The translations under genes and the position numbers were made by a program. Below are positions 253 to 29,336 of a DNA stretch of 32,000 bases, one piece after another. The stretch is from Nitrosarchaeum sp. (GTDB lineage Archaea > Thermoproteota > Nitrososphaeria > Nitrososphaerales > Nitrosopumilaceae). Under the pieces are notes generated by a model. It was not told the origin of the DNA, did no database searches, and worked only from the letters and a program-made list of their open reading frames with translations. The DNA lies in NCBI GenBank assembly GCA_018334095.1, contig JAGXTE010000001.1, forward strand, positions 1-32,000, written 5' to 3'. Each line of letters begins with the position of its first letter. Position 1 is the first letter of the stretch.

Positions 253-1563
253 TTATGGACCATGAGGATCTCCGTCAAGAGCCATACCGTTGATCGAAGT
301 TGGCCTTTGATCAGCGTCATCATCAAAATCACTGGTAAAACCATATCCATCTCCATCAGCATCATTATCGACGGCATTTAGAATACCATCACCGTCAATA
401 TCAAAATCAAAAGTATTTACTAACCCATCTCCGTCAACGTCGTTGTCAATACCATTTGGAATGCCGTCACCGTCAACGTCAGGATCGTGAAAATTAGATA
501 TTGGATCTCCGTTTAGAAATCCATCACCGTCAACGTCAGGATCAGAACCATTTGGAATGCCGTCACCGTCAACGTCAGGATCAGCTCTATTTGGAACATT
601 GTCGCCATCAACGTCAGGATCAATGCCATTTGGAATGCCGTCACCGTCAATATCGGTTTCAGAAGGATTACTATTTAGAAATCCGTCACCGTCAACGTCA
701 GGATCAGAACCATTTGGAATGCCGTCACCGTCAATATCGGTTTCAAAAGGATTACTATTTAGAAATCCGTCACCGTCAATATTAAGATCAAAGCCATTTG
801 GAATGCCGTCACCGTCAACGTCAGGATCAGAACCATTTGGAATGCCGTCACCGTCAACGTCAGGATCAGAACCATTGAATATACTATCTCCGTCAACGTC
901 AGGATCAGAACCATTTGGAATGCCGTCACCGTCAGTGTCAAAAAATGAAATTAGAGATAAAATATTTGCAGATAGTGAACCTGAGCCAGAGATACCATTA
1001 CAAACATAATTGGTAGAATCTACCTCAGATGGAATTGATAATGAATTATTATTGTCATCATCAATCCCCATCATTATTTTCACACCGCCGTTAGGACAGT
1101 TTACTCCTGTGGGTTCAAGTAAAGTAACAATTAATGTTGTAAATCCATTATTTCCAGGCATACCCTGTGCTCCATCAGGACCGGTTTCACCTTGTGGACC
1201 TGCTGGACCGGTTTCACCTTGTGGACCTGCTGGACCGGTTTCACCTTGTGGACCTGCTGGACCGGTTTCACCTTGTGGACCAGAAGTACCAGCACCTTGT
1301 ATATTTGGCACATCAGTCCAAGTATTTTTTCCAGTCTTTTTGTAAATATTGTAAGTGTCATTATGATTATCGATGTACAAATCACCTACTTTGCCAAGCT
1401 TTGGTAATGGAGGACCATCCCCAGTCCAGACGCGATTTTTTTTGTTGACTTTGCCATCATGTTGGTCATCATCAGAATCTGCAAATGCAGGAATTGATGA
1501 CATTGCTCCACTTGATAGTAATGAGAATACTGCTAAAAACAAAAATAATTTTTTAATTTGCAT
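253..1563 (-). CDS. Secreted collagen-like / thrombospondin-type-3-like calcium-binding repeat protein
   Basis: N-terminal signal peptide ([28 protein letters not shown]). 16 uninterrupted G-X-Y triplets (GPQGETGPA x4). A Cys-containing middle domain (GVNCPNGG...YVCNG). About 15 DxDxDG loops ([13 protein letters not shown]). Confidence 0.85.
311..939 (-). repeat. Coding tandem repeats (39-nt and longer units) encoding DxDxDG calcium-binding loops
   Basis: gtcaacgtcaggatcagaaccatttggaatgccgtcaccgtca recurs at least five times almost exactly (around 541, 691, 811, 850 and 891). Confidence 0.9.
1144..1290 (-). repeat. Collagen G-X-Y coding repeat with perfect 27-nt tandem units
   Basis: ggaccggtttcaccttgtggacctgct is repeated three times perfectly, plus one partial copy (1188-1290). 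Confidence 0.9.
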
Positions 1564-14525: not shown

Positions 14526-15365
14526 TCATTTCTCACAGCCAATCCCATCTTTGTCCCCATCAAATCTATGAGGATCACTTCCCATTACTCTAAAGTTCTT
14601 GTATGATATATCGCCACAATCTAAATCCGGTGGATATGGCAGGATACAAACATCAGGATATGATGGGTCACAATTTTCTTTAGAATCTAGAGTCTCTTTT
14701 GGAATCACTTTAGGAGTTTCTTCGGGACTAGTTTTTAGAGTCTCTTTAGGAATAATTACAGGAGTAACTATCAGAGTCTCTTCTTTACATCCATATTTTT
14801 GAGCCCAAGATTCCCCTGAAAACTCACTTGTATCACAATATTGAGTCAAGATGTTAGCATGGCCATTTGATAGCAGCATTTCATTTATCACGCCACCTTC
14901 GCAGTAAACTTTGCCAAGCATTCTACCATACTGATCAAAAGGTTGCAAGTCATCTTGATCAACCGTAATCATGCTGTCCACAGGGCAATGCATTACAGTA
15001 AACAGAGTTGCTTCTTGGAATCCTAGTTTGTCTTTTTCGGGAGTGTTAGTCAATGACAAACGAATTTTATGATTTGCAGTATAAATTGTATCTCCATCAA
15101 CTATCCTGGTTACTTTTTCTGTGATACAATTTCCTGTGCAGTTGATAACTGTAGGTTCTGCAAAATCTGGAATGCTACAACTGTTTCCAGTCCACAGTCC
15201 TCCCTTTGAGAGACAATCAATTTTTTCTTTATTCTCGTCAGGTCTTGTATCTCCTTGAAATGTTGGTCTGTTGTCTTGCCACGTAGTAGGTGAGATAGCT
15301 GCAAAGACTGCAACTGCACCAATAACTCCTACAACAATAATTGCGATGATGATTAGTGATTTCAT
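14526..15365 (-). CDS. Secreted staphylococcal-nuclease (SNase/thermonuclease) homologue with C-terminal Excalibur Ca-binding domain
   Basis: N-terminal TM/signal. SNase motifs are present (VTRIVDGDTIY..KIRL...NTPE, DQYGRMLGKVY, INEMLLSNGHA). The C-terminal DCGDISYKNFRVMGSDPHRFDGDKDGIGCE (14529-14621) matches Excalibur. 4-nt overlap with the upstream gene. Confidence 0.85.
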   Translation of the reverse strand: MKSLIIIAIIVVGVIGAVAVFAAISPTTWQDNRPTFQGDTRPDENKEKIDCLSKGGLWTGNSCSIPDFAEPTVINCTGNCITEKVTRIVDGDTIYTANHKIRLSLTNTPEKDKLGFQEATLFTVMHCPVDSMITVDQDDLQPFDQYGRMLGKVYCEGGVINEMLLSNGHANILTQYCDTSEFSGESWAQKYGCKEETLIVTPVIIPKETLKTSPEETPKVIPKETLDSKENCDPSYPDVCILPYPPDLDCGDISYKNFRVMGSDPHRFDGDKDGIGCEK

Positions 15366-15844
15366 TTATTTTTTCTCCAAATCATAAAAATTACAATACC
15401 ACAAATTGAAACTATAGTCACTACCAAAATTAACGGAACATAGTAAATAAAATCAGATGTTGTTATCTGAGATTCATCTAGTAATACGGGAGGAGTACAT
15501 ATACTGACACTTCGTTTATCTCCAAATGCATAAACAAGATATGATTTTCCAATTTCAAAATCACTATACTGGATTGAATTATGACCTGAAGTTACAGTTC
15601 CATCATCTGCATCCCCTTTTAGAATACGAGTAACATCAAAGGTAATTGTATCGTATTCCTCAGTTCCAGGATGGATTTCTGGATGTGGATTGTAAATGTC
15701 AATGACAGTTCCAACAAATACCACATCTGCCTGCTGAAAATTGTAATACTCTGCACCTAATGGAGGTGGGGCTCCACATGATGCGTGTGCAGAAATGGGT
15801 AGAAATACAATTCCAATAATAATTATCAAAAGTATAGTTTTCAT
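15362..15844 (-). CDS. Secreted, C-terminally membrane-anchored protein; possible OB/NTR (TIMP-like) module
   Basis: Signal peptide ending ISAHA|SCG. ADVVFVGTV, F.V.RILKG, GKSYLVYAF and S.C in the same order as prokaryotic TIMP/NTR-like proteins. C-terminal TM helix followed by RKNK. Confidence 0.6.
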   Translation of the reverse strand: MKTILLIIIIGIVFLPISAHASCGAPPPLGAEYYNFQQADVVFVGTVIDIYNPHPEIHPGTEEYDTITFDVTRILKGDADDGTVTSGHNSIQYSDFEIGKSYLVYAFGDKRSVSICTPPVLLDESQITTSDFIYYVPLILVVTIVSICGIVIFMIWRKNK

Positions 15845-15850
15845 TTTCTC

Positions 15851-16588
15851 CTAGTTACAAAAGCCTATACATGATTCTAGTGTATCAAATGGAACAGAAC
15901 CACCACATCCTCCCCATGTAAAAGATTTGCAAGAACGAGATTCCCAATCAAAATAATATTTTTCTATCGATGCTTTGCAGACCCCAGTTTCAGGTACTTG
16001 ATAGCAATGCCTAGAACTTTCAGATTGATTTACCATTAATGCCCATCCCCTTTCAAATAATTTTAAAACAGAATCAGGTTTTACACATGTAAAATGACCA
16101 TTAGTCGATTTTACAACTAGTACTAATTCATCTCTACACTCAATGTCACTGTATAGAACTCCCAACTTGAATTGCTTTAGTGGTGAGACAACAAAGGTTT
16201 CACAGTTATCAGTTCTTTCTGTTGCTTCAGGCCAGTGAGCAAAAATAATTTCTATCTTTTCAGGACTCTTTGACTCAAATGATGCATAGTAAAAACAATC
16301 ATCAGTTGTTGCATTCGCATCTACCTCTTCTCCATTAATTAAAACAAATAGTTGACCACCTATCGGGTATACTATTGGGGCCTTGAGATCAAGGGTTGCA
16401 TTTTCTCCCAGATCAAAAATCACAGAGGCAGAAGCGTGATCAAAAGATGCAGAGTTTATGTTTTCTCCAGTATAGTAAACTTTTCTCACATCTTTTTCAA
16501 GATACATGAATATTTCTTCGGCATGAGATGTTTGAATTATGCTTGCAAATGCGATTATTCCAAGTCCTATAATGATTAACGATTTCAC
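15851..16588 (-). CDS. Secreted protein with C-terminal Kunitz/BPTI serine-protease-inhibitor domain
   Basis: Signal peptide; GTG start. The C-terminal 50 aa are CYQVPETGVCKASIEKYYFDWESRSCKSFTWGGCGGSVPFDTLESCIGFC, with Cys spacing 8-15-7-11-3 (BPTI is 8-15-7-12-3). GxCKA (P1 Lys), YYF and WGGC are conserved. Confidence 0.85.
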   Translation of the reverse strand: MKSLIIIGLGIIAFASIIQTSHAEEIFMYLEKDVRKVYYTGENINSASFDHASASVIFDLGENATLDLKAPIVYPIGGQLFVLINGEEVDANATTDDCFYYASFESKSPEKIEIIFAHWPEATERTDNCETFVVSPLKQFKLGVLYSDIECRDELVLVVKSTNGHFTCVKPDSVLKLFERGWALMVNQSESSRHCYQVPETGVCKASIEKYYFDWESRSCKSFTWGGCGGSVPFDTLESCIGFCN

Positions 16589-16609
16589 ATAAAATTTAAC
16601 AAAAGTATG

Positions 16610-16623
16610 AACTTAAAGATTTA
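16610..16623 (-). promoter_or_regulatory. Promoter cassette copy 2 (gene-sense TAAATCTTTAAGTT)
   Basis: The core ends 23 nt before the GTG at 16588. It presumably drives the three-gene operon 16588->14526. Confidence 0.5.
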
Positions 16624-16866
16624 CAAAAAGAGTTTTCCATTTCTCATCTTTGCCCTATTACGATATGTAATGATGTGATAGCGAATGATATTTTTTAGCT
16701 TGTCCTCTACCGTAGTCTCCTCATCTAAACAAACAGATAGAAAGTCAAGATAGTCCTTGTCTTTTACATCAATCTCTATCTTTCTCAATTTAACACCTGA
16801 ACCCTTGTAGTCACATCGTCTTGTGAAATCATCTTTGCGTGAATTATGCAAAACCGTATGATACAT
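16621..16866 (-). CDS. Hypothetical protein (81 aa)
   Basis: Charged, protein-like ORF with no family recognised. A 53-codon alternative-frame ORF overlaps its 5' end. Confidence 0.45.
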   Translation of the reverse strand: MYHTVLHNSRKDDFTRRCDYKGSGVKLRKIEIDVKDKDYLDFLSVCLDEETTVEDKLKNIIRYHIITYRNRAKMRNGKLFL

Positions 16867-17012
16867 TTTGCAAAAGGTCTTCTAATCCCCTCCTCAAAGT
16901 AATAGTGCATCACCTGTGCATATGCCTCGCTATTGCATCCTAACATGTTACAAATCAGAGACAAGCTAGGGATTTTTGAGCCTAAAAGGGCAGGTTATTG
17001 TAATAATAGAAT

Positions 17013-17177
17013 CTAATGTTTGGGTTTTGCTTTATGTTTGGCTAGTTCATCTTTTAATGCATTGATTCTTTTTTCTAATTTATCCACTCTTCGATCATCT
17101 GCATCTGCTCTTTTTTCTAATTTTGCCAATCTTCGTTCTTGTTGTTGTTCATGTTGTTTATTGGTTAATTTTGCCAT
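17013..17177 (-). CDS. 54-aa coiled-coil micro-protein (below the ORF-track cutoff)
   Basis: Hand-translated: MAKLTNKQHEQQQERRLAKLEKRADADDRRVDKLEKRINALKDELAKHKAKPKH. The ATG lies 24 nt downstream of promoter cassette copy 3. Confidence 0.5.
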   Translation of the reverse strand: MAKLTNKQHEQQQERRLAKLEKRADADDRRVDKLEKRINALKDELAKHKAKPKH

Positions 17178-17199
17178 GGGTTAGATAGAATTTTTTATG

Positions 17200-17213
17200 A
17201 ACTTAAGGATTTA
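17200..17213 (-). promoter_or_regulatory. Promoter cassette copy 3 (gene-sense TAAATCCTTAAGTT)
   Basis: Exact 14-mer. The CTTAAG core at 17202-17207 ends 24 nt before the ATG at 17177. Confidence 0.5.
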
Positions 17214-17284
17214 GGAAATAAAAAATCAAATTCGCTTTTAGATGTTTTAATTATTTAAAAAAATCTGAAAATAGAAGAGAAAAA

Positions 17285-18127
17285 TTAAGGTTCAATTCTT
17301 GCACATTCTGCTAATGCAGTAATAGAGCCTTCTCCAGATGGAGAATATGCATTAACAGACCAAGCAGGTAATCCTTCAAAGATAGTGCTTGATTCACCAG
17401 ATATGTTAACTCTGGGATCTGTTGTTCTATATCCTCCACCAACAACCATTTCACCTGATAGACATGGTGCATAGGATGATCTAAATGGGGTTTCAGCAGA
17501 AAAATCTGTTGTTTGACCAGATCGTTCTACTACTATCAATCTTCCGCCAGAACCGGTACCGACATCATCAGGTTCACATAATACACTTCCATCAGAATTG
17601 ATTTGTCTAATTGAAGAACCTACAGGACAGTTTTCATTCACGCGTGTCTGTAGTAGAGCATCAGCTGTTGCTCTTGATGTTGCTTCGTTGTCGATGTTGG
17701 ATTGTAGTTGTGTATCAGCTGCTTGTAGTTCTGTGAAAATATCAAAGAAAGAGTCAATCTGAGATTGCTGAGACTCATCACTTGCTTGTAGTTCTGTGAA
17801 AATATCAAAGAAAGAGTCAATCTGAGATTGCTGTGCATCATTGGTTGTCTGCAATTCTGTGAAAATATCAAAAAATGAATCTACTGTAAACACATCAAAG
17901 AACACATCAAAGAAACTGTCAGCTTGTGGATTTGGCTGATTTTCATTAATCAGAGAAAGTAATTCACATTCTTTTGAATACTTTAGTGGGTCTTTTTTTT
18001 CAAACTCTTTGGTACACTCTTTTTGGAGTTTAGTTGGCTTGTCTGCTGCAAATGCATTGCCAATAAGTGGACTGGAAATCAGAATAGTAGAAATTGCCAA
18101 AAATAACAAAAGACTGGATTTATTCAA
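17285..18127 (-). CDS. Secreted protein with DSFFDIFTELQ tandem repeats and a Cys-containing C-terminal globular domain
   Basis: Signal peptide (LISSPLIGNAFA|A). Three 21-aa repeats plus degenerate copies. C-terminal CPVGSSIRQINSDGSVLC...VVGGGY...AECA. The TTG start is supported by CTTTAATT ending 24 nt upstream. Confidence 0.7.
   Translation of the reverse strand: MNKSSLLLFLAISTILISSPLIGNAFAADKPTKLQKECTKEFEKKDPLKYSKECELLSLINENQPNPQADSFFDVFFDVFTVDSFFDIFTELQTTNDAQQSQIDSFFDIFTELQASDESQQSQIDSFFDIFTELQAADTQLQSNIDNEATSRATADALLQTRVNENCPVGSSIRQINSDGSVLCEPDDVGTGSGGRLIVVERSGQTTDFSAETPFRSSYAPCLSGEMVVGGGYRTTDPRVNISGESSTIFEGLPAWSVNAYSPSGEGSITALAECARIEP
17723..17920 (-). repeat. 63-bp coding tandem repeat (3 units plus degenerate flanking copies)
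   Basis: cttgtagttctgtgaaaatatcaaagaaagagtcaatctgagattgctg recurs with a 63-nt period (17722, 17785, about 17848). Confidence 0.85.
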
Positions 18128-18193
18128 CAGAAACGTAGAGTCTAAACTAATAATTAAAGAGGATCGTGTGTAATGCGATCAATATTACAGAAT

Positions 18194-18322
18194 CTAATCT
18201 TTCTCTGGCTCTTTAACTACACTTTCAAAAGTCATTTTCTTTTTTTGACATGACTCACATTTTTCCATTATGCCAAACTCATTTCGGAGCTTACCTTTTC
18301 CATCACATCTAAAACAAACCAT
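18194..18322 (-). CDS. 42-aa zinc-ribbon micro-protein (below the ORF-track cutoff)
   Basis: Hand-translated: MVCFRCDGKGKLRNEFGIMEKCESCQKKKMTFESVVKEPEKD (CxxC...CxxC). The ATG lies 23 nt downstream of promoter cassette copy 4. Confidence 0.5.
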   Translation of the reverse strand: MVCFRCDGKGKLRNEFGIMEKCESCQKKKMTFESVVKEPEKD

Positions 18323-18343
18323 AAAGTTTCTACAAGAATTTTA

Positions 18344-18357
18344 AACTTAAGGATTTA
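18344..18357 (-). promoter_or_regulatory. Promoter cassette copy 4 (gene-sense TAAATCCTTAAGTT)
   Basis: Exact 14-mer. The CTTAAG core at 18346-18351 ends 23 nt before the ATG at 18322. Confidence 0.5.
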
Positions 18358-18377
18358 TGAAAACACAAAGTTTGGAA

Positions 18378-19304
18378 TTATTTTAATCCCTTGTTTGTAC
18401 CAATGATTTCATGATTGGTTAAATCGTATGAAAGCTTGTAGACTTCTTGGTATCCATCAGATGAAAATCCACCGACATAAAGTATTTTGTTTTGGGAATC
18501 AAAAGCAATGCTAGTAATTGTTAGATCAATGTTTGCCAAGTCTTCCCAAGTTACTCCAAGATCATCTGAACGAACCAAGCCAAATGAATTTACGGATGCA
18601 AAAAGAATTCCATCATCATCAAAATTCAAAGCATATACTGCTAATCCTTGATATGCAACATGATTCCATGTTATACCACCATTATTTGATTTGTAAATTC
18701 CATTTCCTGTTCCTGCAAATATTAGTTGAGAGTCAGTTGGAGAAATCGCTAATGCCGAAATATATTCAGGATACTCTAGAGTTTCCCAAGTTTTTCCAGC
18801 ATCTGTAGTTTTGAACAAGCCTCTTGCACCACTGTCAAAACCTAAAATCAAGTTTGGGTCACTTTTGCTTAAGGTCATTGCGTGAAAATCAACTGGAGGA
18901 TCTAATACTTTGGAAACTGATTGCCAAGTTATTCCACCATCTACACTTTTGATTAGTCCTGTGTTTCCGCCAGTTGATGGATGTCCACTTGCATACAAAG
19001 GAGAGTCTTTGTCGTGTGGTGCATTAAATGCCATATAGTCTGCTCTTACTTGGTCTACTTTTATTGGAGGCGCACCGTTTCTACTTTGGTAAAAATCTCC
19101 ATGTGTTGCAATATACAAAATGCCAGAATCTGCAGCATCTACACCTAATCCATGAACATGACGCCAATCAACTATTCTAGTTTCAGTCATGGTATCATTT
19201 GAGATAGATTTTTGATCATTAGAATTAAAGCTAAGAGATACTGCAATCCCAATTATTACAATACCTATTATAATGAGAAATTTCTTTGGAACTTTGCTTT
19301 TCAA
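18378..19304 (-). CDS. Membrane-anchored BNR/Asp-box beta-propeller protein (Ycf48/sialidase-like fold)
   Basis: N-terminal TM helix. Four clear Asp-boxes (SVDGGITW, TTDAGKTW, SNNGGITW, SDDLGVTW). TTG start. Confidence 0.75.
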   Translation of the reverse strand: MKSKVPKKFLIIIGIVIIGIAVSLSFNSNDQKSISNDTMTETRIVDWRHVHGLGVDAADSGILYIATHGDFYQSRNGAPPIKVDQVRADYMAFNAPHDKDSPLYASGHPSTGGNTGLIKSVDGGITWQSVSKVLDPPVDFHAMTLSKSDPNLILGFDSGARGLFKTTDAGKTWETLEYPEYISALAISPTDSQLIFAGTGNGIYKSNNGGITWNHVAYQGLAVYALNFDDDGILFASVNSFGLVRSDDLGVTWEDLANIDLTITSIAFDSQNKILYVGGFSSDGYQEVYKLSYDLTNHEIIGTNKGLK

Positions 19305-19397
19305 AATGTATCGTCAATACCACTTTGAATATTAGATATAAAAAACAAGTACATTACATTTGTAAAATGGTTTGTTTCAAAATATCTGCGAGATCAT

Positions 19398-19432
19398 AAA
19401 AAAATTTTTAAAATTTAAAAATAAAAAGAAAA
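19398..19432 (-). terminator. Oligo-T tract downstream of the Hcp-like gene
   Basis: The minus-strand sequence after the stop reads CCTTTTCTTTTTATTTTTAAATTTTAAAAATTTTTTT. Oligo-T runs are the usual archaeal termination signal. Confidence 0.35.
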
Positions 19433-19436
19433 GGTT

Positions 19437-19982
19437 CTAGACCTTTACGTTCTTTTTCAGATCATAACCTGCCTTTACTGGTGCTTCACTAGAGCCAATT
19501 GGCTGGTACTTGAACTCTATCTTTGAAAAGTTCAAAGATAATTGTTCTGTTGGTTGTTCCCCAGAGCTGCCTTGTGACTGATAGCTTGAAACTAGGACAT
19601 CGCTCAACACTATGTCGAGATAGCATTGTGATTCTCGTCCTTCACCTGCAACACATAGTTGTAAAGTTACGTCTTTGATGTGTTTGCCAGTAACTACATG
19701 CTCAAACAATTTTGGTGATGCCTTGCTGGCAGATGAAGTAAAACTAAAGTCACTAATTGAGACCTTACCTGCACCGCCTCCACCAGAAGTTGCGGATGAT
19801 TGTGATGCACCCCAGCTAAACGATTCGATTTCTATCCATCCTTTGTGTTTGTCATCTGTCGACTCGCCCGGAACACCGTCGATCTTTAAGAAATAGTCAA
19901 CACTTGCTGCAGATGCACTTTGAGTTAGAAGTCCAATTGCAAAAACAGCCGTGATTCCTAAAAGAAGTATGTTCTTAATCAT
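19437..19982 (-). CDS. Hcp (type VI secretion tube protein, T6SS_HCP family) homologue with N-terminal Sec signal peptide
   Basis: The mature part shows full-length Hcp1-type similarity: VDYFLKIDGVPGESTDDKHKGWIEIESFSWGASQ...GGGGAGKVSISDFSFT...ASPKLFEHVVTGKHI...DVLVSSYQSQGSSGEQPTEQLSLNFSKIEFKYQP...GYDLKKNVKV. The start is revised from 20033 to ATG 19982 (MIKNILLLGITAVFAIGLLTQSASA|AS) because ATCCTTAAT ends 24 nt upstream. Confidence 0.85.
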   Translation of the reverse strand: MIKNILLLGITAVFAIGLLTQSASAASVDYFLKIDGVPGESTDDKHKGWIEIESFSWGASQSSATSGGGGAGKVSISDFSFTSSASKASPKLFEHVVTGKHIKDVTLQLCVAGEGRESQCYLDIVLSDVLVSSYQSQGSSGEQPTEQLSLNFSKIEFKYQPIGSSEAPVKAGYDLKKNVKV

Positions 19983-20004
19983 TGAGCCATGATACCTTTC
20001 GGAA

Positions 20005-20018
20005 TTATTAAGGATATC
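20005..20018 (-). promoter_or_regulatory. Promoter cassette variant (gene-sense GATATCCTTAATAA) for the Hcp-like gene
   Basis: The CTTAAT core at 20007-20012 ends 24 nt before ATG 19982. Confidence 0.4.
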
Positions 20019-20158
20019 CATAAAGTGTAACAAAAATTACGTTACAAGAATCTCCAGTAATCCTATTTTTGGAAATGTATTGAAATTCCTATGTCAATTG
20101 TTACTATGATTTTTTAAATTCATTAAACTAGAGAATGTAATATTCCATTTTGGAAAAA

Positions 20159-22680: not shown

Positions 22681-23763
22681 TTGAAAATCATAATCATACT
22701 GCTTGCAATAGGCTTTCTTCTGAGCATAAATTTTGTAAATGATTCGTTTGGATATAATGTTGAATACAAAATATTTGGCAGGCAGTTCTTTGACACTCCG
22801 CTTGTCTGCACATACAAGCCAACACTGGAACAGGATCCATATCTAAAACAGTGGGGAGTTGACAGACTAGAAGAGTCTGCAAGGCTTGCAGTACAGGATT
22901 GGCAATCTGCATTACAGATACATGAAGGAAAAAGCACAAAGGACAACTGGAAGATAAACTACAAACTGCTAACAGAAAAAGATGTGCAAAACAATCTTCA
23001 AAAAGATTGCAATGTCATAATTGAATTTCATCCAATGCCAACAGAGAAAAACGAGATGTATCGTGTACTTGGAGTAACATATTCAGATGATTCTGGTTTT
23101 AAATTAATTAAAATCTATTACAGAGACATACAAATCTGCAAAACAAGTGATGAGAAATACATCTACTATAGTGCATGTTATGGAGAAGACATGCTAATGT
23201 CAGAAAAACTTCGAACCACAATAACTCACGAGATGGGACATGCATTAGGATTGGGTCACTATCAAGCAGATGATCCTGAGGTAAATTCAGTCTGGGCAAA
23301 AGGACTAGTTGATGCAGAGTCAATAATGGCAGTATTCTCACATGAGAACTCAAAACTAATGAAGATAAAACCAATCGATATACAAAAGATAAAATCATTA
23401 TACACACCAAACGGATTCAAACCAATCAATACTGCAGTTTTAGAGACACCTCAACCAATCTTTGAGCCAATATCAGAAAAGCCAGCAGAGCAAGTCATAC
23501 CTTCATGGATAAAACAAAACGCAAAGTGGTGGTCAGATGAAACGATTACTGACAGAGATTTTGTAATTGGAATCCAATATCTGGTTCAAAAAGACATCAT
23601 CAAGGTTAGCGAAGTCAGAGAATCCACAGGAATATTCACCCAAGAGATACCATCGTGGGTCAGAAACAATGCAAAATGGTGGTCTGAAGACAAGATTACA
23701 GAGACTGACTTTATCAAGGGGATAGAACATCTAGTCAAAATTGGAATCATCAAGATAAACTAG
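22681..23763 (+). CDS. Secreted matrixin-like (M10/metzincin) zinc metalloprotease with two C-terminal 37-aa IPSW...WW repeats
   Basis: Signal peptide. HEMGHALGLGH at 23227-23259 (HExxHxxGxxH), with a downstream candidate Met-turn (SIMAV). C-terminal repeats at 23497-23607 and 23647-23757. Confidence 0.8.
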   Translation: MKIIIILLAIGFLLSINFVNDSFGYNVEYKIFGRQFFDTPLVCTYKPTLEQDPYLKQWGVDRLEESARLAVQDWQSALQIHEGKSTKDNWKINYKLLTEKDVQNNLQKDCNVIIEFHPMPTEKNEMYRVLGVTYSDDSGFKLIKIYYRDIQICKTSDEKYIYYSACYGEDMLMSEKLRTTITHEMGHALGLGHYQADDPEVNSVWAKGLVDAESIMAVFSHENSKLMKIKPIDIQKIKSLYTPNGFKPINTAVLETPQPIFEPISEKPAEQVIPSWIKQNAKWWSDETITDRDFVIGIQYLVQKDIIKVSEVRESTGIFTQEIPSWVRNNAKWWSEDKITETDFIKGIEHLVKIGIIKIN

Positions 23764-28106: not shown

Positions 28107-29336
28107 TTAGATTTTGATAATACCTGAAGTTACTAGAAATGCGATGCTCTTTGCAAATTCTTGATCTGTGATTTCACCTGCTACCCAGAATTTTGCATTA
28201 TTTTTGATCCATCCTGGAATTTCAGTCATAGATGAATCAGAATTAGGCAAAACAGGAATTACGATAATATTTTTTCGTATCATGTACTGCAAGGCATTTT
28301 TAAAATCATTATCCGTGATTTGGTTTTTAGACCACCAATCAGCATTGTTTCTGATCCATTGAGGAATTGCAATATCATCTTCAATATTTTTAGATTTGTA
28401 AATCGGTTTTTCAAGTGTTTCTGCAAGTACATCAAATGTTTTTGTTGCAATATTTGGGCCATATACAAACTTGGCAGTAAAAGTTCCAATCTCAGAGGTT
28501 GTAACGTCTTCAAATTTTATTCGGTTCAATGGTGTAACTGGAGAAATAGTTGTAGTGTTTGTCTTTCCAGATGGGTATGTAATTGTCAAAACTCCGGAAT
28601 TTAGTGAAATCTCAGGCACAACTATGTTGATTTCAACTGGATCCCCAGGATCATAGAGATTTTTGTCACTTCCCATGAAGATGTTGGTCTTTGCGTTTAC
28701 ACTTGATGCAGTAAATGGAACGTCAACTTCTACTGAATAATATTTTGCAACAATGTGATAAGTTCCAGAAGGATTGTGTTTTAACAAGTTATCCATTGAA
28801 AAATTTTCTACGATATTTGCTTGTGATACTTTGGTTTTATATTCCTCAACTAGTTTTGCAGGAGAGCCATTATCATCTAAAATTTTTACATGTAAAGTTT
28901 CAGCTTTTGCTGCACTTGGCTCGTAATAGTTTGTAGAGAAAGTTATGATTGCTTTATCAAATTTACCGTACGTATCTTTGTCAGTGGTAATTTTCACTTC
29001 CAACGGTTCAACAAAAACGCCAACTGTTTTTTGAATGTCTTTGTAATTGTACTGTATTGTCCAATTACCAAACTGATTATCAAATGCCGTTCGAATAATG
29101 TTGTGTGTTGCCTTTGAAGCTTGTAAGCTTGGAAGAGAGCCAGTAATTATTTTGCCATCAGGTTGAGTTGCATTCCATTCAACTGTACCGCCTACATATC
29201 TGTCAACAACTACAAAAACAGTAATCCAATCATTAGGACCAAACACCTCCATTTTAGGAGTTGCTATAATTTCAGCGCCATATGCAACAGGAATTAGACT
29301 AAATGAGAAAAATACCAATGCGATAAATAACTTCAT
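28107..29336 (-). CDS. Secreted multi-beta-sandwich protein with two C-terminal 37-aa IP.W...W repeats
   Basis: Signal peptide (SLIPVAYG|A). Two DK(D/N)xY...D...I signatures typical of Ig/MG-like sandwiches. C-terminal repeats at 28257-28367 and 28110-28220 are homologous to those of the metzincin. GAATTAAA ends 23 nt before the ATG. Confidence 0.7.
   Translation of the reverse strand: MKLFIALVFFSFSLIPVAYGAEIIATPKMEVFGPNDWITVFVVVDRYVGGTVEWNATQPDGKIITGSLPSLQASKATHNIIRTAFDNQFGNWTIQYNYKDIQKTVGVFVEPLEVKITTDKDTYGKFDKAIITFSTNYYEPSAAKAETLHVKILDDNGSPAKLVEEYKTKVSQANIVENFSMDNLLKHNPSGTYHIVAKYYSVEVDVPFTASSVNAKTNIFMGSDKNLYDPGDPVEINIVVPEISLNSGVLTITYPSGKTNTTTISPVTPLNRIKFEDVTTSEIGTFTAKFVYGPNIATKTFDVLAETLEKPIYKSKNIEDDIAIPQWIRNNADWWSKNQITDNDFKNALQYMIRKNIIVIPVLPNSDSSMTEIPGWIKNNAKFWVAGEITDQEFAKSIAFLVTSGIIKI

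What the first reader, a model, noticed from the sequence alone, without database searches (positions are those of the whole stretch)
19437..20033. Orphan Hcp (T6SS tube protein) homologue carrying a Sec signal peptide, in an archaeal genome context
After a canonical n-h-c signal peptide (MIKNILLLGITAVFAIGLLTQSASA|AS), the protein aligns end to end with Hcp1-type T6SS tube proteins. From memory, Pseudomonas Hcp1 has AVDMFIKIGDVKGESKDKTH..IDVLAWSWGMSQ, GGGGGAGKVNVQDLSFTK, STPNLMMACSSGKH, VLVSSVSTGGSGGEDRLTENVTLNFAQVQVDYQPQ and GWNIRQNVQA. Here the equivalent blocks are VDYFLKIDGVPGESTDDKHKGWIEIESFSWGASQ, GGGGAGKVSISDFSFTS, ASPKLFEHVVTGKH, VLVSSYQSQGSSGEQPTEQLSLNFSKIEFKYQP and GYDLKKNVKV. Canonical Hcp has no signal peptide and is exported through the sheath/baseplate machine. 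T6SS is not an established archaeal system, and this window has no TssB/C, VgrG, PAAR or baseplate genes. The signal peptide is grafted exactly onto the usual Hcp N-terminus. This suggests an Hcp ring repurposed as a Sec-exported extracellular or pseudo-periplasmic ring, tube or carrier.
Basis: partly seen in the sequence, partly recalled or inferred. Interest (0 to 1): 0.85.

Follow-up and report, generated by a model that had tools for sequence, protein, structure and literature searches.

The report
Signal-peptide Hcp ring protein in an archaeon
An ammonia-oxidising archaeon encodes a close copy of the bacterial type VI secretion "tube" protein Hcp that carries an ordinary export signal and has no secretion machine nearby. 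It belongs to a large group of exported Hcp proteins for which I found no published description, so the Hcp ring appears to have been reused outside the cell membrane.

Summary
A 181-aa gene on the minus strand (19982→19437) matches Pfam T6SS_HCP over the whole profile (E 3e-40). It models as an Hcp fold (TM 0.87-0.92 to solved Hcp structures). It starts with a 25-residue n-h-c signal ending ASA|AS, joined exactly where canonical Hcp begins. The window is archaeal (the identical protein is in a Nitrosarchaeum MAG) and holds no T6SS, eCIS or phage-tail genes.

The gene is not a one-off. About 69 of its 120 closest homologues carry an N-terminal signal or membrane segment. These include Nitrososphaera viennensis and N. 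evergladensis, and proteins labelled SAR202 and Patescibacteria. At least 44 distinct 50%-identity clusters do the same. None of 19 unique signal-bearing loci has a T6SS core gene nearby, against 59 of 78 canonical loci (p = 5e-10). The nearest signal-less relatives (57-61% identical) sit inside complete T6SS loci.

This clade has gained an invariant cysteine pair across a β-hairpin. The N. viennensis orthologue is transcribed.

Best reading: a Sec-exported, T6SS-independent Hcp ring in the pseudo-periplasm or on the cell surface. Its job there is unknown. I found no paper describing this. I rate it a new variant of a known kind.

The parts
19437..19982 (-). Coding sequence of the signal-peptide Hcp (181 aa plus stop; identical to NCBI MBS3925092.1, Nitrosarchaeum sp. 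MAG)
   Evidence: ORF list and translation; Pfam PF05638 E = 3.3e-40 over the full profile; exact match P0001
19908..19982 (-). Predicted Sec (class I) signal peptide, residues 1-25, MIKNILLLGITAVFAIGLLTQSASA, with predicted cleavage ASA|AS
   Evidence: n-h-c features and Ala at -3/-1, invariant in 10 orthologues. pLDDT below 50 for residues 1-24. The Hcp1 alignment starts at residue 24. Other exported proteins in the window have the same c-region style. Cleavage is inferred, not shown.
19440..19907 (-). Mature Hcp domain, residues 26-181
   Evidence: Pfam and TIGR03344 matches; AF2 model and Foldseek hits to Hcp crystal structures, target TM 0.87-0.92
19623..19655 (-). Cys110...Cys120 hairpin-tip loop (CVAGEGRESQC), a putative disulfide-stapled loop specific to this clade
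   Evidence: Both Cys are invariant in 10 of 10 Nitrosopumilaceae-type sequences while the loop length varies. Among the 120 closest homologues compared, only this clade has Cys at both positions. Residues 110 and 120 are cross-strand partners of the modelled hairpin E102-111/E119-137. In T6SS-embedded relatives the same segment is the strictly conserved RKAGG(D/E)QQE; it is the most relaxed segment in exported forms.
20004..20011 (-). TATA-box-like TTAATAAT about 26 nt upstream of the ATG at 19982. This fits a leaderless or near-leaderless archaeal transcript and supports this start codon.
   Evidence: Direct reading of the sequence. The function is inferred from general archaeal promoter geometry.
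19394..19432 (-). T-rich tract directly after the stop codon, a likely archaeal terminator. The gene looks monocistronic.
   Evidence: Direct reading of the sequence; inference
17285..18127 (-). Context: a 280-aa exported protein with SFFD(I/V)FTEL repeats, two genes downstream. In other Nitrososphaeria-like contigs the same repeat 'stalk' is fused directly in front of an Hcp domain.
   Evidence: BLASTP to the Hcp fusion P0226, E = 1e-12. phmmer hits to the stalk-Hcp fusions in L051 and L078.

Best explanation
The gene encodes a genuine Hcp-family protein that has been disconnected from type VI secretion and turned into an ordinary Sec substrate.

Proposed sequence of events:
1. The pre-protein crosses the archaeal membrane unfolded through SecYEG.
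2. Signal peptidase I cuts after Ala-25. This leaves an N-terminus equivalent to that of canonical Hcp.
3. The domain folds outside the cytoplasm. In this Nitrosopumilaceae clade the Cys110-Cys120 disulfide would staple the β-hairpin tip.
4. The protein assembles into the usual six-membered Hcp ring in the pseudo-periplasm between membrane and S-layer, or on the cell surface.
5. There the ring acts as a free-standing scaffold. Most probably it is a lumen-binding carrier, holdase or 'sponge', or an envelope building block. It is not the inner tube of a contractile sheath.

What is shown: the Hcp family match and fold; the signal-type N-terminus and its conservation; the absence of T6SS genes around this and every other signal-bearing homologue examined; transcription of the N. 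viennensis orthologue.

What is inferred: cleavage, the disulfide, ring assembly, location, and above all the biological role.
For: Family and fold.

Signal peptide:
- Conserved A-x-A|A junction.
- About 69 of the 120 best homologues carry a hydrophobic N-terminal extension that ends exactly at the Hcp start.
- 44 of 58 single-domain representatives of 50%-identity clusters do the same.

Independence from T6SS:
- 0 of 19 unique signal/TM-type loci have any of TssA/B/C/E/F/G/K/L/M nearby, against 59 of 78 canonical loci (Fisher p = 5e-10). With at least 5 kb of flank the counts are 0/12 against 39/50 (p = 6e-7).
- The closest signal-less relatives, P0036 (60% identical) and P0103 (57%), lie inside T6SS loci: a complete one for P0036, and TssB/C/E next to P0103 at a contig end.
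- Loci in the complete N. viennensis and N. evergladensis genomes, and contigs labelled SAR202 and Patescibacteria, show only housekeeping neighbours.

Extracytoplasmic adaptation:
- The invariant, clade-specific Cys pair sits at cross-strand positions.
- Relatives fuse Hcp behind signal peptides to coiled-coil, collagen or SFFDVFTEL stalks.
- Other relatives fuse it to C-terminal Ig-like domains plus PxW[IV][KR]NNAKWW repeats. These repeats also end other exported proteins of this window.

The ring as the selected unit outside T6SS:
- 50 of the 150 best representatives are single polypeptides with exactly six Hcp domains; 18 have two and 6 have three.
- One six-domain protein models with pTM 0.77 and has no T6SS neighbours.

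Not a relic:
- 57-65% identity is maintained across archaeal and bacterial lineages.
- GC3 is host-like at 0.35.
- NVIE_026580 is transcribed at log2 RPKM of about 7.8-8.2 (PMC7785015 supplement).
Against: - No signal-peptide predictor, multimer model or experiment was available. Cleavage, disulfide, hexamer and localisation are all unproven.
- I could not scan the rest of this MAG, or any whole archaeal genome, for contractile-system genes.
- No conserved partner or cargo gene was found next to the signal-bearing forms. The carrier/holdase idea therefore has no direct support.
- Membrane proteomics of N. viennensis lists the orthologue with a single low-scoring peptide and zero intensity (PMC10030591 supplement). 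Protein-level evidence is weak.
- Many homologues, including the Nitrososphaera ones, have a longer N-terminus: a hydrophobic segment, a linker of about 20 residues, then ADA|A. This may be a membrane anchor rather than a cleaved signal.
- The hairpin tip is the least conserved segment in exported forms. From memory of Ballister et al. 2008, this is the site used to cross-link stacked Hcp1 rings. Its divergence argues against T6SS-style tube stacking but says nothing positive about function.
Confidence: 0.6

Rival explanations
1. Extracellular self-polymerising tube or fibre. After export the rings stack head-to-tail into a filament outside the cell, acting as a pilus-like or matrix structure, rather than serving as separate rings.
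For: The GGGGAGK extended loop and the C-terminal DLKxNKKV are as conserved in exported forms as in T6SS forms. From general knowledge, Hcp rings stack into tubes in crystals. Fusions to trimeric stalks (collagen, coiled coil) suggest higher-order surface assemblies.
Against: The hairpin-tip loop is the most diverged segment in exported forms. From my memory of Hcp1 engineering studies it lies at the ring-ring interface. In this clade it is enlarged and Cys-stapled. From general knowledge, natural Hcp tubes need a baseplate and sheath as template. Single-chain six-domain proteins with long tails fit closed rings better than filaments.
Confidence: 0.15
2. Defensive decoy against bacterial T6SS attack. 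A resident ring in the pseudo-periplasm, about 60% identical to the attackers' Hcp, recaptures Hcp-loaded effectors delivered by T6SS-armed neighbours.
For: The protein is very similar to Hcp proteins embedded in real T6SS loci. Signal-bearing forms occur in lineages that apparently lack T6SS: ammonia-oxidising archaea and contigs labelled SAR202 and Patescibacteria. The predicted location is where many T6SS effectors act. From general knowledge, the Hcp lumen binds effectors.
Against: This is purely inferential, with no linked immunity-like genes. PADLOC has no match, although it covers anti-phage systems only. Archaea lack peptidoglycan, the target of many effectors. Planctomycete multi-domain forms do not fit easily.
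Confidence: 0.1
3. Membrane-tethered Hcp. The N-terminal hydrophobic segment is an uncleaved signal-anchor, so the ring, or a monomer, stays attached to the outer face of the membrane.
For: Most homologues have a 36-72-residue N-terminus with a TM-length hydrophobic stretch followed by a linker. Stalk-bearing fusions suggest display on a tether.
Against: In the window protein and its clade the hydrophobic core is short (about 16 residues). It is followed directly by an invariant A-x-A|A site, the classic signal peptidase I pattern. The same junction (ADA|A) is conserved at the end of the long forms too.
Confidence: 0.12
4. An ordinary tube subunit of a contractile machine encoded elsewhere in the genome. 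On this reading the hydrophobic N-terminus is an annotation artefact or is irrelevant.
For: Only 32 kb of the genome could be inspected. Orphan hcp genes far from their T6SS are common in bacteria; for example, the Massilia loci have no neighbouring T6SS genes.
Against: There is no in-frame start between the hydrophobic segment and the Hcp domain, and the N-terminus is conserved in orthologues. The separation between signal-bearing and T6SS-linked forms is complete. A Sec signal is incompatible with cytoplasmic loading into a sheath. The N. viennensis transcriptome table (stored truncated) carries only this one 'type VI secretion' annotation. No relatives were found in viral collections.
Confidence: 0.04
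5. A non-functional relic of horizontal transfer from a T6SS-bearing bacterium.
For: The distribution among Nitrosopumilaceae is patchy: only a few metagenomic relatives and no named cultured Nitrosopumilus among the hits.
Against: The ORF is intact with a host-like GC3. Conservation is strong across many lineages, including the signal-peptide cleavage motif and the Cys pair. The N. viennensis orthologue is transcribed. There are at least 44 divergent clusters of signal-bearing forms.
Confidence: 0.03

Closest known systems
Hcp1 / TssD, the T6SS inner-tube protein (P. aeruginosa PA0085, PDB 1Y12; Pfam PF05638, TIGR03344)
   Same: Clear homologue: about 41% identity to 1Y12 and 57-61% to Hcp proteins inside T6SS loci. 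The Pfam profile is fully covered. It has the same β-barrel plus single helix fold and the conserved GGGGAGK extended loop.
   Different: It carries a cleavable-type Sec signal peptide and lies in an archaeal genome with no sheath, baseplate, spike or ClpV genes nearby. The hairpin-tip loop, strictly conserved in T6SS forms, is replaced by a longer Cys-bracketed loop. Canonical Hcp has no signal and is assembled in the cytoplasm.
Specialised or 'evolved' Hcp proteins with C-terminal toxin extensions (Hcp-ET type); from general knowledge
   Same: They show that the Hcp domain tolerates fusion to other modules. Relatives of the window protein are likewise fused, to stalks, Ig-like domains and surface-anchor repeats.
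   Different: Hcp-ET proteins are cytoplasmic T6SS cargo carriers without signal peptides. The fusions seen here sit behind signal peptides and carry structural or anchoring modules, not toxins.
Haloarchaeal T6SS-like contractile injection system (Halogeometricum borinquense; PMC11566945)
   Same: It is an archaeal use of phage-tail-derived secretion hardware.
   Different: From my own knowledge it is a complete sheath-tube-baseplate machine of the CIS lineage, with a different tube family and no signal peptide. That paper mentions neither Hcp nor Thaumarchaeota. Nothing of that kind is in this window.
Pseudo-hexameric tube modules made from tandem domains (VgrG/gp27 hub, phage T5 tail tube pb6); from general knowledge
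   Same: They are precedent for building a six-fold tube ring from fewer chains that each carry several tube domains. This is relevant to the 2-, 3- and 6-domain Hcp proteins found among the relatives.
   Different: Those proteins are parts of tails or T6SS spikes. The six-domain Hcp proteins examined here are stand-alone, often have planctomycete-type N-termini, and the one locus inspected has no T6SS genes. The window protein itself has a single domain.

Membership tests
Hcp protein family (Pfam PF05638 / NCBIfam TIGR03344), membership by homology | Significant full-length match to the family profiles above the curated cut-offs | tested here: met
   PF05638: 137.8 bits against 23.5, profile 1-129 of 129. 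TIGR03344: 62.4 bits against 58.9.
Hcp protein family (Pfam PF05638 / NCBIfam TIGR03344), membership by homology | Hcp fold (β-barrel with one helix and an extended loop) | tested here: met
   AF2 pLDDT is at least 90 for 105 residues. Foldseek top hits are all Hcp structures, target TM 0.87-0.92.
Functional T6SS tube subunit (TssD) | No signal peptide; cytoplasmic assembly inside the TssB/C sheath | tested here: not met
   A 25-residue n-h-c N-terminus with a conserved A-x-A|A site precedes the Hcp domain, and no alternative start exists.
Functional T6SS tube subunit (TssD) | Genomic association with T6SS core genes (TssA-M, VgrG, PAAR, ClpV) | tested here: not met
   None found in the 32-kb window. 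0 of 19 signal-type loci against 59 of 78 canonical loci have T6SS genes nearby. The whole genome could not be scanned.
Functional T6SS tube subunit (TssD) | Hexameric ring that stacks into a tube | not testable with these tools
   Only monomer prediction was available. Indirect evidence: a six-domain relative models with pTM 0.77, and the ring-face hairpin loop is diverged.
Functional T6SS tube subunit (TssD) | Release from cells depends on a working T6SS | not testable with these tools
   Requires experiment.
Sec (class I) signal-peptide substrates | Tripartite n-h-c region with small residues at -3 and -1; no twin-arginine, lipobox or pilin-type motif | tested here: met
   MIK / NILLLGITAVFAIGLL / TQSASA|AS. 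Ala-23 and Ala-25 are invariant. There is no RR, no Cys at +1, and no [KR][GA] prepilin site. This is feature-based only; SignalP was not available.
Sec (class I) signal-peptide substrates | Demonstrated cleavage and export | not testable with these tools
   Transcription of the N. viennensis orthologue is the only solid expression evidence. Membrane proteomics lists it with one weak peptide.
Extracellular contractile injection system or phage tail | Neighbouring sheath, baseplate, spike and tape-measure genes, or a viral context | tested here: not met
   No such Pfam families in the window. No relatives in IMG/VR or GenBank phages. The only PHROG match is to a family of unknown function.

The most novel reading that the evidence does not exclude
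Signal-peptide Hcp proteins form a widespread, so far undescribed class of T6SS-independent, exported ring proteins. The class would cover ammonia-oxidising archaea and T6SS-less bacteria. Its variants would include stalk-mounted, surface-anchored and single-chain six-domain forms. On this reading the phage-tail/T6SS tube ring has been reused as an extracytoplasmic scaffold, chaperone or effector-sponge. The window gene would be the Nitrosopumilaceae version, stabilised by a disulfide.
Probability: 0.45. Interest if true: 0.85.

Novelty: new variant of a known kind. Interest (0 to 1): 0.7.

Why it matters
- Hcp is treated as the hallmark of type VI secretion and is used as a marker gene (KEGG K11903, 'T6SS tube protein') in genome and metagenome annotation. 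These results show a large set of Hcp genes that cannot work that way, including genes in abundant soil and aquatic ammonia oxidisers. Counts of 'T6SS' from Hcp hits in environmental data are therefore partly wrong.
- Biologically, this would be a clear case of a contractile-machine part being reused as a Sec-exported protein, in a domain of life without canonical T6SS.
- It offers a handle on the poorly known pseudo-periplasm and surface of ammonia-oxidising archaea. N. viennensis is cultivable and transcribes the orthologue.
- The six-domain 'single-chain ring' relatives may also interest protein engineers, who already use Hcp rings as building blocks.

Tried and rejected
- **Literature.** All ten full-text searches found no paper describing a signal-peptide Hcp or discussing the archaeal genes. 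Terms included Hcp with Nitrososphaera, Thaumarchaeota, ammonia-oxidizing archaea, signal peptide, Hcp-like, polymorphic toxins and NVIE_026580. The library is limited to open-access papers, and the N. viennensis proteome paper (PNAS 2016) is not held.
- **Viral origin.** No relatives in IMG/VR or GenBank phages.
- **Known defence system.** No meaningful PADLOC match.
- **Conserved partner or cargo gene.** phmmer of 21 window proteins against all ORFs of the fetched loci found only shared modules (anchor repeats, SFFD repeats, an SNase-like neighbour) and no constant partner. The 754-783-aa protein upstream of Hcp in both Nitrososphaera genomes has no Pfam match and no counterpart in the window.
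- **Provirus link in N. viennensis.** A Portal_Mu gene lies about 9 kb away, but cellular genes (DUF72) intervene and the arrangement is absent in N. evergladensis. I judged it coincidental.
- **Single or multiple origin of the signal.** NJ trees with 100 bootstraps support the window's clade (67%) and the Nitrososphaera clade (72%). They never recover all signal-bearing forms, or all canonical forms, as one group (0 of 100). Deep branching is unresolved on 157 columns.
- **Donor lineage.** The closest T6SS-embedded relatives come from unnamed metagenomic contigs.
- **Type IV pilin-like (class III) signal.** Considered for the long N-termini (conserved K-x-Q before the hydrophobic stretch). 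The required [KR][GA] cleavage motif is absent, so this is not supported.
- **Upstream starts.** The TTG at 20033 and the ATG at 20021 (the 194-aa gene call P0271) would place the TATA-like box inside the coding region, and orthologues do not conserve them. Either start would still include the signal.
Full report
**1. What is in the sequence**

The finding's coordinates hold one ORF on the minus strand. It runs 19437..20033 if read from an upstream TTG (198 aa).

That start is the most plausible one. A TATA-like TTAATAAT lies about 26 nt upstream (20011-20004). The orthologues begin at the equivalent position (MTNKTIL...). A T-rich tract follows the stop codon. An alternative ATG at 20021 gives the 194-aa gene call P0271. 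It would add 13 residues in front of the same hydrophobic segment and change nothing essential. No in-frame start codon lies close to the Hcp domain, so the hydrophobic N-terminus must be translated.

**2. It is an Hcp**

- Pfam T6SS_HCP matches with E = 3.3e-40 over the entire profile (1-129 of 129) on residues 31-159.
- NCBIfam TIGR03344 (TssD) passes its cut-off, 62.4 against 58.9 bits.
- The best solved relative by sequence is P. aeruginosa Hcp1 (1y12), E = 2.3e-30. Query residues 24-180 align to chain residues 2-164. The Hcp body therefore starts exactly after the N-terminal extension.
- An AlphaFold2 model built from 69 homologues has mean pLDDT 81.7. Residues 1-24 are below 50, and 105 residues are at 90 or above.
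- Foldseek against the PDB returns only Hcp structures at the top (E ~1e-15, target TM-scores 0.87-0.92, rmsd ~2 Å).

**3. The N-terminus is a Sec-type signal peptide, judged by features**

No dedicated predictor was available. The sequence MIK / NILLLGITAVFAIGLL / TQSASA|AS has a basic n-region, a 16-residue hydrophobic core and a polar c-region with Ala at -3 and -1. It has no twin arginine, no lipobox cysteine and no prepilin-type [KR][GA] site.

In ten orthologues of 57-95% identity the residues G17, L19, T20, A23, A25, A26 and S27 are invariant. At least twelve of the 29 larger ORFs of this window also have hydrophobic N-termini. Many of these end in the same style: NAFA|AD, GLAFA|ES, PAFA|DS, VAFA|TS. 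Cleavage itself is inferred.

**4. Context**

The identical protein is NCBI MBS3925092.1 from a Nitrosarchaeum sp. MAG. The window has the expected character:
- about 36% GC;
- purF/purL/purQ and the PurP-type DUF1246/DUF1297 enzyme, which I know as archaea-specific;
- TatC and plastocyanin-like copper proteins.

Pfam scans of 28 ORFs and phmmer searches with nine T6SS core proteins found no sheath, baseplate, spike, ClpV, eCIS or phage-tail gene.

The gene is the first of six consecutive minus-strand genes (14.5-20.0 kb) that all encode proteins with N-terminal export signals. The other five are:
- a BNR propeller;
- an SFFDIFTEL-repeat protein;
- a Kunitz-domain protein;
- a 160-aa protein;
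- an SNase-Excalibur nuclease.

The gene's GC3 (0.35) equals that of its host, so it is not a recent import.

**5. It belongs to a large family of signal-bearing Hcp proteins**

Among the 120 best homologues, 51 are canonical: about 160 aa, starting MA(A)VDYF. About 69 carry an N-terminal extension with a hydrophobic segment that ends A-x-A|A immediately before VDYFLKIDG. For SAR202 the deposited gene call was truncated, and the full ORF also has the hydrophobic segment.

Two designs occur:
- Short classic signals of 19-32 residues. These include the window's Nitrosopumilaceae-type clade, P0001-P0009.
- Longer N-termini of 36-72 residues: a hydrophobic stretch, a linker of about 20 residues, then ADA|A.

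The longer design is found in:
- Nitrososphaera viennensis, N. evergladensis and Nitrososphaera sp. FF02;
- many soil MAGs;
- a SAR202 Chloroflexota MAG;
- a contig labelled Patescibacteria;
- an SLH-protein-bearing bacterium.

A filter-free search of 1.84 billion cluster representatives found 12,637 Hcp relatives. Among the best 150, 44 of the 58 single-domain proteins have such an N-terminus. The phenomenon is therefore diverse and old, not a one-off.

**6. Signal-bearing and T6SS-linked forms are mutually exclusive**

The closest signal-less relatives lie in T6SS loci. P0036 (60% identical) sits in a complete locus with TssA, B, C, E, F, G, K, L, M and ClpV. P0103 (57%) lies at a contig end next to TssB, C and E.

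I extracted all ORFs from the 123 sequences held (122 fetched loci plus the window). I classified each Hcp N-terminus and searched for nine T6SS core proteins. After removing duplicates:
- 0 of 19 signal/TM-type loci have any T6SS core gene nearby.
- 59 of 78 canonical loci do (Fisher p = 5e-10).
- With at least 5 kb of flank the counts are 0/12 against 39/50 (p = 6e-7).

In the complete genomes of N. viennensis and N. evergladensis the gene sits between DUF72, a conserved 754-783-aa protein of unknown family, and phosphate-transport genes.

**7. Signs of adaptation to life outside the cytoplasm**

*(a) A cysteine pair.* All ten sequences of the window's clade have exactly two cysteines, C110 and C120. 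They bracket a loop of variable length. In the model they are cross-strand partners of the hairpin E102-111/E119-137. Among the 120 closest homologues compared, only this clade has Cys at both positions. A stabilising disulfide is the obvious reading, but it is inferred.

*(b) Relaxed constraint on that loop.* In T6SS-embedded relatives the same hairpin tip is the strictly conserved RKAGG(D/E)QQE (75-100% per column). In exported forms it falls to 30-50%, far more than the overall drop from 0.83 to 0.73. From memory, G90 of P. aeruginosa Hcp1 lies in this loop and was used with R157 to cross-link stacked rings (Ballister et al. 2008). I could not retrieve that paper. If I recall it correctly, the constraint lost is the one on ring-ring stacking.

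*(c) Fusions to extracellular modules.* Relatives place the Hcp domain behind a signal peptide and one of three kinds of stalk:
- coiled-coil stalks (P0223, P0188, P0200);
- collagen Gly-X-Y stalks (P0189, P0202, P0219);
- SFFDVFTEL-repeat stalks (P0226; L051, a Nitrososphaeria-like contig that, by my reading, encodes a eukaryote-type topoisomerase IB; L078).

The SFFD repeat also makes up the 280-aa exported protein two genes downstream in this window (BLASTP E = 1e-12).

In L031 and L096 a signal-Hcp is followed by a second signal-Hcp. The second one is extended by an Ig-like domain and two PxW[IV][KR]NNAKWW...GII repeats. The same repeats end the M10-like protease and another exported protein of this window. 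They are probably a lineage-specific surface-anchoring module.

**8. The ring seems to be the unit under selection**

Fifty of the 150 best representatives are single polypeptides with exactly six Hcp domains. Eighteen have two domains and six have three. Many begin with the R..L.LE.LE.R.LLA-type N-terminus that I know from planctomycete exported proteins.

One of them (P0124, 1066 aa) models with pLDDT 78.5 and pTM 0.77 from only 16 sequences. That implies a fixed inter-domain arrangement rather than beads on a string. A closed pseudo-hexamer is the natural interpretation, but I could not inspect the coordinates. The locus of another (P0123, L123) has no T6SS genes.

**9. Expression**

- It is transcribed at log2 RPKM of about 7.8-8.2, with log2 fold-change 0.64 (adjusted p = 2e-13) between the copper-limited and control conditions (PMC7785015, supplementary dataset).
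- It is the only 'type VI secretion' annotation in that table, which was stored truncated.
- A membrane-fraction proteome lists it with one low-scoring peptide and zero intensity (PMC10030591 supplement). This is not convincing protein-level evidence.
- No paper in the searchable library mentions the gene.

**10. Interpretation**

I consider it well supported (about 0.85) that this is a T6SS-independent Hcp-fold protein exported by the Sec pathway. Ring assembly outside the membrane is likely but unproven. The actual role is open. The candidates I considered are a carrier or holdase, an envelope building block, an extracellular fibre, or a sponge for incoming T6SS effectors. No conserved partner gene was found.

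The overall confidence of 0.6 refers to the exported, free-standing ring scenario as a whole. Rivals are listed separately. The 'ordinary tube subunit with its machine elsewhere' reading is hard to reconcile with a translated, conserved signal peptide and with the complete separation seen in section 6. It could not be excluded by a whole-genome scan.

**11. Novelty**

The fold and family are known, and databases already label the archaeal genes as Hcp. Three things appear undescribed in the literature I could search:
- the export signal;
- the systematic uncoupling from T6SS;
- the extracellular fusion architectures.

I rate it a new variant of a known kind. It also has a practical consequence: Hcp hits (KEGG K11903) from ammonia-oxidising archaea, SAR202 and planctomycete-like organisms should not be counted as evidence of type VI secretion.

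Noticed in passing
P0121-P0160 (representative search); locus L123 10001-13207: Giant proteins made of exactly six tandem Hcp domains ('single-chain hexamers', 900-2100 aa), plus 2- and 3-domain forms. Many have planctomycete-type LExRxLL N-termini. P0124 models with pTM 0.77. The P0123 locus has no T6SS genes. P0142 consists of six nearly identical repeats and has no signal.
   Followed up: partly
L031 10001-11746 and 19063-20085; L096 7989-9761: Nitrosopumilales-like contigs carry a signal-Hcp directly followed by a signal-Hcp fused to an Ig-like (MG2/filamin-like) domain and two surface-anchor repeats. About 9 kb away in L031 lies a 340-aa exported protein with a fragment matching Phage_GPD/VgrG (E = 4e-13) and a weak, sub-threshold match (E 0.03) to the eCIS-core family around an HELTHTQQQ motif.
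   Followed up: partly
window 15851-16588 (-): An exported 245-aa protein ends in a textbook Kunitz/BPTI domain (C-8-C-15-C-7-C-11-C-3-C; Pfam E = 1.4e-11). This is unusual for an archaeon.
   Followed up: no
window 14526-19982 (-): A run of six co-directional genes all encode proteins with N-terminal signals or anchors: SNase+Excalibur nuclease, a 160-aa protein, the Kunitz protein, the SFFDIFTEL-repeat protein, a BNR/Ycf48-like propeller, and Hcp. It looks like an island of exported proteins.
   Followed up: partly
window 23500-23760 (+) and 28107-28400 (-); L031, L096 fusions: A repeated C-terminal motif, PxW[IV][KR]NNAKWW..I.D.DF...I..L[IV]..GII, usually in pairs, ends several unrelated exported proteins (an M10-like zinc protease, a 409-aa protein, Hcp fusions). 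It is probably a lineage-specific cell-surface or S-layer anchoring module. No Pfam family matched it.
   Followed up: partly
window 17285-18127 (-); L051 7593-8483; L078; P0226: SFFD(I/V)FTEL repeat 'stalk' shared between a window protein and proteins in which it is fused upstream of an Hcp domain. L051 and L096 also share a 114-aa Zn-ribbon-like gene beside their different Hcp genes, which suggests one syntenic locus with remodelled Hcp architectures.
   Followed up: partly
L033 3159-3599; window 14526-15365 (-): In another short-signal Hcp locus the gene right after Hcp is a membrane-anchored SNase-like protein. It is 44% identical (E = 2e-16) to the window's SNase ORF, which lies 4 kb from Hcp. 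This is a loose, possibly syntenic association.
   Followed up: no
L030 7559-9910 and L040 7646-9910; L030 1-1260: In both complete Nitrososphaera genomes Hcp is preceded by a conserved 754-783-aa Cys-rich protein with no Pfam match and no signal, and followed by a small conserved Cys-rich ORF. In N. viennensis a Mu-type portal gene (provirus) lies about 9 kb away.
   Followed up: partly
window 253-1563 (-): An exported protein with collagen triple-helix repeats and DUF7151, which also hits many phage tail-fibre PHROGs through the collagen region. Collagen stalks also occur in some signal-Hcp fusions (P0189, P0202, P0219).
   Followed up: no
window 19437-19982 (-), database annotation: NCBI and JGI label this gene and the Nitrososphaera genes 'type VI secretion system tube protein Hcp' (KEGG K11903 type). 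Environmental surveys that count Hcp as a T6SS marker will pick up these archaeal genes as false positives.
   Followed up: no
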